The notes beneath the pieces are model-generated. The model worked only from the letters and a program-made list of their open reading frames with translations. It made no database searches and was not told where the DNA came from. From a virus (lineage: Duplodnaviria > Heunggongvirae > Uroviricota > Caudoviricetes), in the IMG/VR virus record IMGVR_UViG_2526164646_000006: a stretch of 23,456 nucleotides of DNA; one strand, written 5' to 3'. The position numbers and the translations under genes were made by a program. Of this stretch, positions 16,370 to 19,607 are shown in pieces. Numbering within the stretch: position 1 is the stretch's first letter; each line of letters opens with the position of its first letter.

Positions 16370-16652
16370 CCTACGCAAAGAAGCGCGCGGAAGAGAATGC
16401 CAGGTACGTATTTACGGCGTATGCAATGGAAATCCTGAAACTACAGTTCTGGCACATTACCGGATGGCTGGAATTTGCGGAACTGGAATGAAGCCTGACG
16501 ACCTGATCGGGGCATGGGCTTGTAGCGCGTGTCACGATGAAATCGACCGACGCACCCATAATCTCGACAACAAAGACGCCAGACTTTACCACCTCGAAGG
16601 CGTGATCAGGACGCAGGCGATACTGCTGAAGGAGGGAAAGATTAAGCCATGA
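16362..16652 (+). CDS. YbcO-like (DUF1364) putative nuclease
   Basis: MANLRKEARGRECQVRIYGVCNGNPETTVLAHYR...WACSACHDEIDRR; GGGGAGA RBS. Confidence 0.7.
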   Translation: MANLRKEARGRECQVRIYGVCNGNPETTVLAHYRMAGICGTGMKPDDLIGAWACSACHDEIDRRTHNLDNKDARLYHLEGVIRTQAILLKEGKIKP

Positions 16653-17011
16653 ACGAATATCAGTTTGTGCTTCCATACCCGCCGTCGGTGAACACCTACT
16701 GGCGAAGACGGGGAAGCCAATACTACATCAGCGATAAAGGCCAGAAATACCGAAAAGACGTTCAGAAAATCATCCGCCAACTCAAGTTAGACATTTTCAC
16801 CAAATCACGACTCCGCATCAAAGTAATCGCAGACGTTCCAGACTCCCGCCGCCGCGACCTCGATAACATCCTGAAAGGTTTACTCGACTCACTTATCCAC
16901 GCCGGATTTGCGGAAGACGACGAGCAATTCGATGACATTCGCGTAATTCGTGGTGTGAAAGTACCAGGCGGAAGGCTTGGAATAAAAATCACCGAACTGG
17001 AGAACGCATGA
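16649..17011 (+). CDS. rusA: RusA Holliday-junction resolvase
   Basis: LPYPPSVNTYW...DRRRRDLDNILK...IKITELE matches RusA as recalled. Confidence 0.9.
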   Translation: MNEYQFVLPYPPSVNTYWRRRGSQYYISDKGQKYRKDVQKIIRQLKLDIFTKSRLRIKVIADVPDSRRRDLDNILKGLLDSLIHAGFAEDDEQFDDIRVIRGVKVPGGRLGIKITELENA

Positions 17012-17196
17012 ACGCCACAATTCAAACGATACCAGAGCTTCTTATCCAGACACGAGGAAATCAGACCGAAGTGGCGAGGATGCTTTCCTGCGCAAGAGGA
17101 ACAGTGCTCAAGTACAACCGAGACAGCAAAGGCGAGCGTCACGTAATAGTTAACGGCGTCCTGATGGTCAAACAGGGCAAAAGGGGAAGGCCATGA
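17008..17196 (+). CDS. ninH: NinH-like small DNA-binding protein
   Basis: GNQTEVARMLSCARGTVLKY HTH-like segment. Confidence 0.6.
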   Translation: MNATIQTIPELLIQTRGNQTEVARMLSCARGTVLKYNRDSKGERHVIVNGVLMVKQGKRGRP

Positions 17197-17816
17197 GACT
17201 CGAAAGCGTAGCTAAATTTCATTCGCCAAAAAGCCCGATGATGAGCGACTCACCACGGGCCACGGCTTCTGACTCTCTTTCCGGTACTGATGTGATGGCT
17301 GCTATGGGGATGGCGCAATCACAAGCCGGATTCGGAATGGCTGCATTCTGCGGTAAGCATGAACTCAGCCAGAACGACAAACAAAAGGCTATCAACTATC
17401 TGATGCAATTTGCACACAAAGTATCGGGGAAATACCGTGGTGTGGCAAAGCTCGAAGGAAATACTAAGGCAAAGGTACTGCAAGTGCTCGCAACATTCGC
17501 TTATGCGGATTATTGCCGTAGTGCCGCGACGCCGGGCGCAAGATGCAGAGATTGCCACGGTACAGGCCGTGCGGTTGATATAGCCAAAACAGAGCAGTGG
17601 GGGAGAGTTGTTGAGAAAGAGTGCGGAAGATGCAAAGGTGTCGGCTATTCAAGAATGCCAGCAAGCGCTGCATATCGCGCTGTAACGATGCTAATCCCAA
17701 ACCTTACCCAACCCACCTGGTCACGCACTGTTAAGCCGCTGTATGACGCTCTGGTGGTGCAATGCCACAAAGAAGAGTCAATCGCAGACAACATTTTGAA
17801 TGCGGTCACACGTTAG
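17193..17816 (+). CDS. Q: Q late antiterminator, lambda type
   Basis: 207-aa translation beginning MRLESVAKFHSPKSPMMSDSPRATASDSLSGTDVMAAMGMAQSQAG... essentially as recalled for lambda Q. Confidence 0.95.
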   Translation: MRLESVAKFHSPKSPMMSDSPRATASDSLSGTDVMAAMGMAQSQAGFGMAAFCGKHELSQNDKQKAINYLMQFAHKVSGKYRGVAKLEGNTKAKVLQVLATFAYADYCRSAATPGARCRDCHGTGRAVDIAKTEQWGRVVEKECGRCKGVGYSRMPASAAYRAVTMLIPNLTQPTWSRTVKPLYDALVVQCHKEESIADNILNAVTR

Positions 17817-17858
17817 CAGCATGATTGCCACGGATGGCAACATATTAACGGCATGATA

Positions 17859-17888
17859 TTGACTTTTTGAATAAAGTTGGGTAAATTT
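17859..17888 (+). promoter_or_regulatory. pR' late promoter with overlapping qut region
   Basis: TTGACT at 17859-17864, 17-nt spacer, TAAATT at 17882-17887. Confidence 0.8.
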
Positions 17889-17920
17889 GACTCAACGATG
17901 GATAAATGCACTCGTTAAAT

Positions 17921-17957
17921 AAAGCCCTGAGTTAATAGCTCGGGGCTTTTTGCGTTT
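17921..17957 (+). terminator. intrinsic terminator about 60 nt downstream of pR' (tR'-like)
   Basis: 11-bp stem with one G-U pair (17921-17931 / 17939-17949), 7-nt loop, then TTTTTGCGTTTT. Confidence 0.7.
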
Positions 17958-18249
17958 TAAGCACGACCTTTCTGAAAGCGCATCAAACCAAATACCAGAC
18001 AGACCAAAATAATCACCTTATCCGCTGTGGCTACGGTGCGGTGTGCTTTGCATAAAAGAAAACCAGCTCAATGGCTGGCTTCGTGAAAGCGGGTGGCAAG
18101 AGGTTGCGCTAACAACCTGATGCCGTTTTGCCCGTGCATATCGGTCACGAACAAATCTGATTACTAAACACAGTAGCCTGGATTTGTTCTATCAGTAATC
18201 GACCTTATTCCTAATTAAATAGAGCAAATCCCCTTATTGGGGGTAAGAC

Positions 18250-18573
18250 ATGAAGATGCCAGAAAAACATGACCTGTTAGCCGCCATTCTCGCGGCAAAG
18301 GAACAAGGCATCGGGGCAATCCTTGCGTTTGCAATGGCGTACCTTCGCGGCAGATATAATGGCGGTGCGTTTACAAAAACAGTAATCGACGCAACGATGT
18401 GCGCCATTATCGCCTGGTTCATTCGTGACCTTCTCGACTTCGCCGGACTAAGTAGCAATCTCGCTTATATAACGAGCGTGTTCATCGGCTACATCGGTAC
18501 TGACTCGATTGGTTCGCTTATCAAACGCTTCGCTGCTAAAAAAGCCGGAGTAGAAGATGGTGGAAATCAATAA
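18250..18573 (+). CDS. S: holin S with dual-start motif
   Basis: [34 protein letters not shown]...; Met1 and Met3 starts. Confidence 0.95.
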
Positions 18574-19033
18574 TCAACGTAAGGCGTTCCTCGATATGCT
18601 GGCGTGGTCGGAGGGAACTGATAACGGACGTCAGAAAACCAGAAATCATGGTTATGACGTCATTGTTGGCGGAGAGCTATTCACTGATTACTCCGATCAC
18701 CCTCGCAAACTTGTCACGCTAAACCCCAAACTCAAATCAACAGCAGCCGGACGTTACCAGCTTCTTTCCCGTTGGTGGGATGCCTATCGTAAGCAGCTTG
18801 GCCTGAAAGACTTCTCTCCGAAAAGCCAGGACGCTGTGGCACTGCAACAGATTAAGGAACGTGGCGCTTTACCGATGATTGATCGCGGTGATATCCGTCA
18901 GGCAATCGACCGTTGCAGCAATATCTGGGCTTCACTGCCGGGCGCTGGTTATGGTCAGTTCGAGCATAAGGCTGACAACCTGATTGCAAAATTCAAAGAA
19001 GCTGGCGGAACGGTCAGAGAGATTGAGGTATGA
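18557..19033 (+). CDS. R: endolysin R (lytic transglycosylase)
   Basis: [49 protein letters not shown]... Confidence 0.95.
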
Positions 19034-19467
19034 GCAGAGTCACCGAGATTATCTCCGCTCTGGTTATCTGCATCATCGTCTGCCTGTCATGGGCTGTTAA
19101 TCATTACCGTGATAATGCAATCGCCTACAAAGAGCAGCGCGATAAAGCCACATCCATCATCGCTGATATGCAGAAGCGTCAACGTGATGTAGCTGAACTC
19201 GATGCCAGATACACAAAGGAGCTTGCTGATGCTAACGCGACTATCGAAAGTCTCCGTACTGATGTCTCTGCTGGTCGTAAGCGCTTGCAAATCGCCGCCA
19301 CCTGTGCAAAGTCAACGACCGGAGCCAGCGGCATGGGCGATGGAGAAAGCCCAAGACTTACAGCAGATGCTGAACTCAATTATTACCGTCTCCGAAGTGG
19401 AATCGACAGGATAACCGCGCAGGTTAACTACCTGCAGGAATACATCAGGACGCAATGCCTTCGATGA
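19030..19467 (+). CDS. Rz: Rz i-spanin
   Basis: N-terminal membrane helix then coiled-coil; contains embedded Rz1. Confidence 0.9.
19229..19414 (+). CDS. Rz1: Rz1 o-spanin lipoprotein, embedded in Rz in the +1 frame
   Basis: AAGGAG RBS; lipobox VSAC; proline-rich mature region. Confidence 0.85.
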
Positions 19468-19607
19468 TAGCGATAATTTTACTCATCATCCTTCACATCT
19501 GGCTCTGTAGACAGGGTGGTGATCACTTCTGGAGTGAATCCAGATTAAACATCTCATTGCTGATGCTTGATATTGAGCATCTGGCGCGCGGTAAGGGGCT
19601 GCGTTGA
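19464..19607 (+). CDS. small hydrophobic ORF (47 aa) overlapping the Rz stop
   Basis: [14 protein letters not shown]... begins at ATGA overlap with Rz. Confidence 0.25.

What the first reader, a model, noticed from the sequence alone, without database searches (positions are those of the whole stretch)
17859..18124. Lambda-type Q and pR' combined with a very early terminator and a degenerate second hairpin
A strong terminator lies about 60 nt after pR' (17921-17957), which would give a short constitutive late leader RNA. Further downstream, a second hairpin (18095-18124) has two internal mismatches and a weak U-tract, looking like a decayed terminator. The late-leader region appears assembled from different sources.
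Basis: partly seen in the sequence, partly recalled or inferred. Interest (0 to 1): 0.4.

Follow-up and report, generated by a model that had tools for sequence, protein, structure and literature searches.

The report
Standard P22/HK97-type late-gene terminator cassette
This is the ordinary late-gene switch of P22/HK97-type lambda-like phages (lambda-type Q protein, its promoter and an early terminator), found almost base for base in many known phages, so it is not a new arrangement.

Summary
The described features are all real. There is a lambda/P22-type pR' (17859-17887). A strong intrinsic terminator follows it (stem 17921-17949, U-tract to 17958). Further downstream is an imperfect hairpin (18095-18124) with A·A and G·G mismatches.

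The arrangement is not unusual. The whole Q-S interval (17817-18249) is colinear with single known phages: HK544 at 98.8%, and HK140, HK022, HK97, mEp phages, Sf101 and Emek at 95-98%. It also occurs in 265 of 5426 complete E. coli genomes.

The early terminator is the homolog of the feature annotated in phage P22 as "t late / tR', antiterminated by gene 23 protein". Q here is 206/207 identical to lambda Q.

The second hairpin is the homolog of a perfect hairpin in lambda (45031-45060). In 131 related loci only 17% are perfect. One of the window's two mismatches is a common polymorphism. The other, G18119, was seen in none of the other 130 loci, and it is the only difference from the nearest E. 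coli relative.

One result goes beyond the finding. The "filler" between the two hairpins (about 17970-18069) is homologous to P22E, a small RNA recently reported from P22. It has a fold that compensatory base changes support. That is the only mildly new aspect.

The parts
17193..17816 (+). Q antiterminator gene (lambda type)
   Evidence: Pfam PF03589 Antiterm, E = 1.3e-57. 206/207 aa identical to lambda Q.
17859..17887 (+). Late promoter pR' (Plate): -35 TTGACT at 17859-64 and -10 TAAATT at 17882-87. The Q-binding element (qut/QBE) lies in the spacer at 17865-17885.
   Evidence: Consensus scan. Identical to P22 Plate and 2 spacer mismatches from lambda. Homologous positions are annotated as the PR' promoter and Qut site in HK544 and HK140, and as Plate and qut in P22.
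17887..17899 (+). Sigma-70-dependent pause element: -35-like TTGACT (17887-92) and -10-like AACGAT (17894-99). The inferred transcription start is A17894.
   Evidence: Base-for-base identical to lambda and P22 here. P22 annotates the RNA 5' nt at the equivalent position. The role of these elements is described in PMC9388147. The start point is inferred, not measured.
17921..17958 (+). Intrinsic terminator tR' (t late), P22/HK type: 13-bp stem 17921-17949 (GC core 17924-17946) and U-rich tail to 17958. The predicted RNA is about 58-62 nt.
   Evidence: The homolog is annotated as tR' in P22 and as a terminator in Emek. It is nearly invariant in 33 related loci.
17970..18069 (+). Structured, CA-rich leader RNA domain, homolog of the P22 small RNA 'P22E'. 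The closing helix pairs 17975-17984 with 18040-18049. The inner helix pairs 18014-18017 with 18035-18038.
   Evidence: About 70% identical to P22E, which maps 19 nt after P22 tR' (PMC13397905).
18059..18082 (-). Terminator-like hairpin facing leftward (core CCAGC 18063-67 / GCTGG 18074-78, followed on the minus strand by UUUUCUUUU). Its function is unknown.
   Evidence: It is conserved in the P22, ES18 and HK620 lineages, with the stem lengthened by matching insertions on both sides (CCAGC/GCTGG versus CCCAGC/GCTGGG).
18095..18124 (+). Second hairpin, homolog of lambda 45031-45060: a 10-bp stem with two mismatches (A18099·A18120 and G18100·G18119), then GUUUUG. It is enclosed by an outer helix CGGGU/GCCCG.
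   Evidence: G18119 is the only difference from E. coli ISHS7 across the 433-nt interval.
18250..18573 (+). Holin S, the first late gene. Endolysin and Rz follow.
   Evidence: Pfam PF05106, E = 2.4e-30. Annotations of relatives.

Best explanation
This is the normal Q-dependent late-gene regulatory cassette of the P22/HK97/HK022 class of lambdoid phages, carried here by a P22/Sf6-like mosaic phage or prophage.

pR' (17859-17887) fires constitutively. RNA polymerase pauses at the sigma-70-dependent pause element (AACGAT, +1 to +6). Without Q it terminates at tR' (stem +28 to +56), releasing an RNA of about 60 nt.

When Q (17193-17816) has accumulated, it binds the QBE in the promoter spacer and loads onto the paused polymerase with NusA. 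It forms a nozzle on the RNA-exit channel that blocks terminator hairpin formation. The polymerase then reads through tR' and every later hairpin, including 18095-18124, into S, R, Rz and the structural genes.

The 162 nt after about +25 are the P22/HK-type replacement for lambda's 6S-RNA body, tR' and orf-64. They contain a structured RNA domain homologous to P22E. The second hairpin belongs to the S-proximal leader block shared with lambda. Its imperfection reflects one common population polymorphism plus one private base change.

**Shown here:** the sequence elements, their homology and colinearity, the folding energies, the distribution among phages and genomes, and the covariation.

**Inferred from established lambda/P22 work:** the start site, pausing, termination and Q-dependent readthrough.
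For: - Colinearity with single known phages over 433/433 nt: HK544 at 98.8% and many others at 95-97.5%. 68 phage records cover at least 80% of the interval, as do 265 of 5426 complete E. coli genomes.
- P22 RefSeq annotates the homologous promoter, qut site, RNA start and 't late / tR'; antiterminated by gene 23 protein'. Emek annotates a terminator at the same place.
- Q is 206/207 identical to lambda Q and matches PF03589. Lambda Q and P22 gp23 are reported to be interchangeable (PMC8022706).
- The QBE, the -35-like element and the pause element are identical to P22 and near-identical to lambda.
- The terminator is strong: 13 bp, -18.6 kcal/mol, z = -4.3. It is nearly invariant across relatives.
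- In a sample of viral contigs chosen only for the S-proximal leader, 58 had a lambda-type pR' within reach. Of these, 30 carry this terminator and 26 carry lambda's own initial transcribed region.
- The Q mechanism is described in PMC9388147 and PMC4914094.
- Short Q-regulated RNAs from the P22, 21, 82 and phi80 late promoters are documented (PMC7547250).
Against: - No transcription data exist for this sequence. The start site, termination efficiency and Q-dependence are all inferred by homology.
- The promoter match on its own is no better than chance.
- HK620's depositors labelled the same hairpin 'qut' rather than a terminator, and placed the late terminator about 630 nt further downstream. 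Annotators therefore disagree about its role in long-leader relatives.
- The function of the second hairpin remains unassigned.
Confidence: 0.9

Rival explanations
1. One reading: this is an unusual chimeric late leader assembled in this phage from different sources, pairing lambda Q/pR' with a foreign early terminator and leaving a decayed lambda terminator behind.
For: Relative to lambda the interval is three-part. 17817-17918 is 94/102 identical, 17919-18080 is unrelated, and 18081-18249 is 165/169 identical. Exchange joints do fall at the terminator. ES18 and Bp96115, which have other Q types, share only the 3' half of the terminator onward. HK620 and HK633 share only up to its end.
Against: The same complete arrangement exists in HK544, HK140, HK022, HK97, mEp phages, Sf101, ECP1 and Emek, and in divergent form in P22. 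It is also present in 265 E. coli genomes. It is at least as common a partner of lambda-type pR' as lambda's own leader.
Confidence: 0.04
2. The second hairpin is, in its perfect form, a back-up intrinsic terminator. It would catch polymerases that escaped tR' without Q. In this window the two mismatches have weakened it.
For: The lambda copy is a perfect GC-rich 10-bp stem followed by GUUUUG. The mismatches cost about 5 kcal/mol. From my own memory, not verified here, tandem terminators downstream of lambda tR' were reported by Luk and Szybalski in 1983; the paper is not in the library.
Against: It fails the scan's U-tract criterion. An outer helix CGGGU/GCCCG sequesters the short U-run in the predicted fold. 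Only 22 of 131 homologs are perfect, and Watson-Crick pairing at the variable pair is not enriched over random arm combinations (39 observed against 47.8 expected). P22-type copies keep the stem, even with an A-U replacement, but have no U-tract (TGATCTGCCC).
Confidence: 0.2
3. The tR'-terminated RNA of about 60 nt is not just a by-product. It would be a trans-acting regulatory small RNA in lysogens, like StxS of Stx phages.
For: It has sRNA-like anatomy: a 5' stem, an A/U-rich linker, and a terminator hairpin with a U tail. It is highly conserved. StxS and the speculation about lambda 6S RNA provide a precedent (PMC7547250).
Against: There is no Rfam family, and no expression, Hfq-binding or target data. 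The conservation is explained equally well by the DNA and RNA signals for pausing and termination. This RNA was not among the ten P22 small RNAs reported in PMC13397905.
Confidence: 0.12

Closest known systems
Phage P22 late control region (gene 23, Plate/PR', qut, t late/tR'), NC_002371 37186-38244
   Same: The order and spacing of all elements match. The promoter, QBE and pause element are identical. The terminator stem is the same, with only the loop differing. The downstream conserved block GCGTTTTAAGCACGAC.TTTCTGAAAGC is shared, as are the P22E domain, the leftward hairpin and the second hairpin.
   Different: The middle module is only about 79% identical. The S-proximal leader here is lambda-like rather than P22-like. 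P22's second hairpin has an A-U pair at the variable position and no U-run.
Coliphages HK544, HK140, HK022, HK97, mEp234, mEpX1, Sf101 and ECP1 (Q-S interval)
   Same: Colinear over the full 433 nt at 95-98.8% identity. This is the same element.
   Different: Only point differences. The window carries a private G at 18119.
Phage lambda pR' - 6S RNA - tR' (44587-44781) and the leader to S
   Same: The same Q (99%), promoter, QBE and pause element, and the same last 169 nt before S, including the hairpin at 45031-45060.
   Different: Lambda's terminated RNA is 194 nt (a literature value, from memory) and its terminator is unrelated in sequence. 405 nt of lambda (44612-45016, including orf-64) are replaced here by 162 unrelated nt.
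StxS, the sRNA processed from the tR'-terminated pR' transcript of Stx phages (PMC7547250)
   Same: The same origin in principle: a constitutive, prematurely terminated late-promoter transcript.
   Different: There is no sequence relation. StxS comes from a different Q/pR' type and a longer precursor processed by RNase E. No function has been shown for the RNA here.
P22E small non-coding RNA (PMC13397905)
   Same: The window segment 17970-18069 aligns with it at about 70% identity, in the same position and on the same strand. It shares a covariation-supported fold.
   Different: Expression is known only for P22. The paper places P22E 48 nt from gene 13, whereas its sequence maps 179 nt upstream. 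No function is known.

Membership tests
Q-dependent late-gene regulatory cassette, lambda/P22 Q type | Gene for a Q-family antiterminator immediately upstream | tested here: met
   PF03589, E = 1.3e-57. 206/207 identical to lambda Q. The gene ends 42 nt before the -35 element.
Q-dependent late-gene regulatory cassette, lambda/P22 Q type | Sigma-70 promoter with the Q-binding element between -35 and -10 | tested here: met
   17859-17887. Identical to P22 and 2 mismatches from lambda's TATTGAATAAAATTGGGTAAA. The same 2-mismatch site is annotated as Qut in HK544.
Q-dependent late-gene regulatory cassette, lambda/P22 Q type | [quoted passage not shown] | tested here: met
   17887-17899 is identical to lambda and P22. 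The role of these elements is described in PMC9388147. Pausing itself was not measured.
Q-dependent late-gene regulatory cassette, lambda/P22 Q type | Intrinsic terminator between the pause site and the late genes | tested here: met
   17921-17958. The homolog is annotated as tR' in P22.
Q-dependent late-gene regulatory cassette, lambda/P22 Q type | Lysis and morphogenesis genes downstream on the same strand | tested here: met
   Holin PF05106. Endolysin, Rz/Rz1, terminase and portal are named in relatives' annotation.
Q-dependent late-gene regulatory cassette, lambda/P22 Q type | Termination without Q and readthrough with Q | not testable with these tools
   Requires in vitro transcription or in vivo RNA mapping.
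Intrinsic (rho-independent) terminator, applied to the second hairpin 18095-18124 | GC-rich stem followed immediately by a U-tract (at least 5 U in 8) | tested here: not met
   Not listed by the scan. The tail is GUUUUGCC, with 4 U. The stem has 2 internal mismatches. The U-run is paired in an outer helix in the predicted fold. The P22-type homolog lacks U's.
Lambda 6S RNA | Homology of the terminated transcript body and of tR' | tested here: not met
   Only about the first 25 nt align. The rest is unrelated.
P22E-like leader RNA | Sequence homology and a conserved secondary structure | tested here: met
   70/100 identical. 97% of cells are paired against 31-53% in slid controls, and 4-8 pairs show changes on both sides. 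Two caveats apply: few independent lineages, and alignment A5 was fitted to the model.
P22E-like leader RNA | Accumulation as a discrete small RNA | not testable with these tools
   Reported only for P22 infection (PMC13397905).

The most novel reading that the evidence does not exclude
The about 100-nt CA-rich structured domain immediately after tR' (17970-18069, homolog of P22E) may be a functional RNA element of P22/HK-type late leaders. It could be a processed small RNA, or a cis element that governs the stability or timing of lysis-gene mRNA, or Rho access for polymerases that leak past tR'. It is conserved by compensatory changes across coliphage and Salmonella-phage lineages and has no Rfam family.
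Probability: 0.3. Interest if true: 0.45.

Novelty: already known. Interest (0 to 1): 0.14.

Why it matters
As stated, the finding matters little. It rediscovers the P22-type tR', a textbook arrangement that is annotated in public records and present in hundreds of phages and prophages.

Two by-products have modest value:

1. The "degenerate" hairpin illustrates how mosaic exchange and point mutation leave imperfect stems in most copies. This cautions against reading any single imperfect hairpin as a decayed signal.
2. The leader segment between the hairpins has a covariation-supported fold and matches an abundant P22 small RNA of unknown function. That makes a cheap, testable question about late-leader RNAs in a very well-studied phage group.

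Tried and rejected
- **Rfam.** An E-value search of 16500-19500 and a gathering-threshold search of the whole window gave nothing relevant. The only hit was a chance snoU85 match at E = 0.34. No tRNAs were found.
- **Small hydrophobic ORF on the minus strand** (about 18020-17961, 19 aa, with an SD-like AAGGTGA). I read this by eye and rejected it. A 1-nt deletion removes its start in HK022 and HK97, and P22 keeps only 11 codons (sequences).
- **Annotated 'hypothetical proteins' in this spacer** (HK140_065 on the plus strand, Sf101_0056 on the minus strand). They are interrupted in the window: only ORFs of 22-28 aa remain. They are probably spurious.
- **Minus-strand promoter for a leftward unit** between the two leftward-facing hairpins. 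None was found.
- **RNAalifold on an ungapped MAFFT alignment of 22 diverse variants.** It missed the closing helix because the 3' strands shift register between lineages. I replaced this with per-sequence folding and a covariance-model alignment.
- **Literature.** Luk and Szybalski 1983, Vander Byl and Kropinski 2000, and Guo, Kainz and Roberts 1991 are not held. Whether lambda 45031-45060 was ever mapped as a terminator could not be checked.
- **Genome-contig scan** for the post-terminator motif. It returned only 2 loci and added no diversity.

Full report
**Context**

The window is a mosaic P22/Sf6/HK-type lambdoid phage or prophage. Its best overall matches are Sf101, IME10, mEp043 and Sf6, each covering only 40-52% of the window at 96-98% identity.

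Around the finding, the plus strand carries these genes in order:
- rusA (16649-17011), ninH (17008-17196) and Q (17193-17816);
- a 433-nt spacer;
- holin S (18250-18573), followed by endolysin and Rz/Rz1.

Q matches Pfam PF03589 and is 206/207 identical to lambda Q.

**Checking the observation**

All three described features are present.

*Promoter.* The promoter is TTGACT, 17 nt, TAAATT at 17859-17887. As a consensus match it is no better than chance: 3 sites were found against 3.4 +/- 1.8 expected. Its identification rests on homology. It is identical to P22 Plate and differs from lambda pR' at two spacer positions. Depositors annotate the homologous sites as the PR' promoter and Qut in HK544 and HK140, and as Plate and qut in P22.

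*Pause element and start.* The -35-like TTGACT (17887-92) and the -10-like AACGAT (17894-99) make up the sigma-dependent pause element. Both are identical to lambda and P22. By homology with the annotated P22 RNA 5' nucleotide and with lambda 44587, the start is A17894.

*First terminator.* The terminator has a 13-bp stem (17921-17949) and a U-rich tail reaching 17958. The hairpin alone folds at -18.6 kcal/mol. The 64-nt leader has z = -4.27, with 0 of 200 shuffles folding as well. The stem spans +28 to +56, so the predicted terminated RNA is about 58-62 nt.

*Second hairpin.* This hairpin (18095-18124) has exactly two internal mismatches, A18099·A18120 and G18100·G18119, and a GUUUUG tail. 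It folds at -13.9 kcal/mol against -18.7 for lambda's perfect copy. The terminator scan does not list it.

**What it is**

The whole Q-S interval (17817-18249) is colinear with single known phages:
- 433/433 nt at 98.8% in HK544;
- 95-97.5% in HK140, ECP1, Gally, HK106, HK542, mEp234, mEpX1, mEpX2, HK022, Sf101, mEp213, mEp043 and HK97;
- 97% coverage at 98.1% in Salmonella phage Emek.

In total, 68 phage records cover at least 80% of the interval, as do 265 of 5426 complete E. coli genomes. The nearest genome, strain ISHS7, differs at a single base.

P22 RefSeq annotates the homolog of the early hairpin as 't late or tR'; antiterminated by gene 23 protein action to allow full late transcription'. 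The same record annotates Plate, qut and the RNA start. Emek's depositors also call it a rho-independent terminator. The 'very early terminator' is therefore the known P22-type tR'.

I also sampled 120 viral contigs chosen only because they share the S-proximal leader. Of these, 58 had a lambda-type pR' within reach. Thirty carry this terminator, 27 of them in the same layout of about 275 nt, and 26 carry lambda's own initial transcribed region. The terminator sequence is nearly invariant across 33 such loci.

**Relation to lambda**

The interval is mosaic relative to lambda:
- 17817-17918 is 94/102 identical to lambda 44510-44611.
- 18081-18249 is 165/169 identical to lambda 45017-45185.
- The 162 nt between them are unrelated and replace 405 nt of lambda: the 6S RNA body, tR' and orf-64.

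The terminator is itself an exchange joint. ES18 and Bp96115 have a different Q type and share only the 3' half of the terminator and what follows. HK620 and HK633 share the region up to the end of the terminator and then diverge into a leader of about 700 nt.

**How it most likely works**

This account is inferred from lambda and P22 work; it was not measured here.
1. pR' is constitutive.
2. RNA polymerase pauses at the sigma-dependent element. Without Q it terminates at tR', releasing a short RNA. Such RNAs are documented for lambda, 21, phi80, 82 and P22 (PMC7547250).
3. Q bound at the QBE loads onto the paused complex. With NusA it forms a nozzle on the RNA-exit channel that precludes terminator hairpins (PMC9388147).
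4. Engagement occurs while the nascent RNA is shorter than about 30 nt (PMC4914094). That is compatible with a terminator stem beginning at +28.
5. Lambda Q and P22 gp23 are reported to substitute for each other (PMC8022706).

**The second hairpin**

This hairpin is the homolog of lambda 45031-45060. Among 131 related loci, 22 have a perfect stem, 81 have one mismatch, 26 have two and 2 have three.

Nearly all the variation sits at pair 5. The 5' arm carries G, A or T, and the 3' arm carries C, A or T. Watson-Crick pairing there is no more frequent than random combination of the arms would give: 39 observed against 47.8 expected.

The window's A·A at pair 5 is one of these common combinations. 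Its G·G at pair 6 was seen in none of the other 130 loci. That base is also the single difference from strain ISHS7 across the interval.

P22-type copies keep the stem, with an A-U pair at position 5, but have no U-run.

'Degenerate relative to lambda' is therefore correct. 'Decayed terminator' is unproven. The hairpin fails the U-tract criterion, and its short U-run is enclosed by an outer helix in the predicted fold. I could not retrieve the older lambda literature on tandem late terminators.

**Beyond the finding**

The segment between the hairpins is not featureless. Window 17970-18069 aligns at about 70% identity with P22E, a 101-nt plus-strand small RNA. P22E had the highest read counts (RPM) of the ten P22 small RNAs tabulated in infected Salmonella and their vesicles (PMC13397905). 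Its sequence maps to NC_002371 37964-38064, which is 19 nt after P22 tR'.

A closing helix pairs 17975-17984 with 18040-18049, and an inner helix pairs 18014-18017 with 18035-18038. Both are maintained through compensatory changes in several sequence versions:
- RNAalifold on 10 sequences found 4 pairs changed on both sides.
- On that alignment, 97.8% of cells are paired against 31-46% when partners are slid.
- Thirteen diverse variants each fold into the same architecture on their own.
- A covariance-model alignment of 64 distinct sequences gives 97.1% paired against 32-53%, and 8 pairs with double changes against 1-2.

Two caveats apply. The independent lineages are few, and the last alignment is fitted to the model. 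The enclosed loop is A- and C-rich and G-poor. No Rfam family matches.

**Verdict**

The thing itself is already known. Interest is low. The only modestly new lead is the structured P22E-like leader domain.

Noticed in passing
window 17970-18069 (+): Homolog of the recently reported P22 small RNA 'P22E'. It has a closing helix (17975-84 with 18040-49) and an inner helix (18014-17 with 18035-38) kept by compensatory changes across HK-, P22-, ES18- and other-type leaders. The loop is CA-rich and G-poor. There is no Rfam family.
   Followed up: yes
window 18059-18082 (-) and 17921-17949 (both strands): A terminator-like hairpin faces leftward (GCCAGC...GCTGG followed by UUUUCUUUU on the minus strand). 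It is conserved in the P22, ES18 and HK620 lineages, with matching insertions on both sides of the stem. tR' itself is symmetric, with an A-tract upstream and a T-tract downstream, so it could also stop leftward transcription. No leftward promoter or gene was found between the two.
   Followed up: partly
window 18099/18120 (pair 5 of the second hairpin); 131 related loci: One base pair of an otherwise almost invariant stem is hypervariable (G/A/T against C/A/T), and most copies are mismatched there. In lambda this position lies inside a perfect Shine-Dalgarno-like AGGAGGT. The cause is unexplained: recombination within the loop, or selection against the SD-like motif.
   Followed up: partly
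L012 (IMGVR_UViG_2737471840_000007), homolog of window 18095-18124: The loop of the second hairpin is inverted relative to all other copies (GTTGTTAGCGCAAC instead of GTTGCGCTAACAAC), while the arms are perfect. This suggests a palindrome-mediated inversion.
   Followed up: no
window 17238-17256 (-), inside Q: A minus-strand terminator-like hairpin coincides with the position of the P22 'a23' antisense-RNA terminator (P22 37221-37253, lambda paQ analog). A promoter-like site at 17448-17420 lies near the annotated a23 promoter position, which is equivalent to about 17461-17493, but does not coincide with it.
   Followed up: partly
window 18141-18196 (+): Interleaved complementary segments (GAACAAATC ... 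TGATTACT ... GATTTGTTC ... AGTAATC) lie upstream of S and are shared with lambda. The MFE fold predicts a long stem-loop here, but the order a-b-a'-b' would also allow alternative or pseudoknotted pairings.
   Followed up: no
PMC13397905 versus NC_002371 (L127 972-1072): The paper states that the P22E 3' end is 48 nt from the gene 13 start codon. The published sequence maps 179 nt upstream of gene 13.
   Followed up: yes
L162 (JAEZIN010000021.1, 'MAG: Bacillota bacterium'): A contig binned as Bacillota carries the exact enterobacterial-phage post-terminator motif. This is probably mis-binning or contamination.
   Followed up: no
HK140_065 (L002 1227-1382, +) and Sf101_0056 (L161 14936-15127, -): Hypothetical proteins are annotated inside the Q-S spacer of relatives. 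Their frames are broken in the window, so they are probably not genes.
   Followed up: partly
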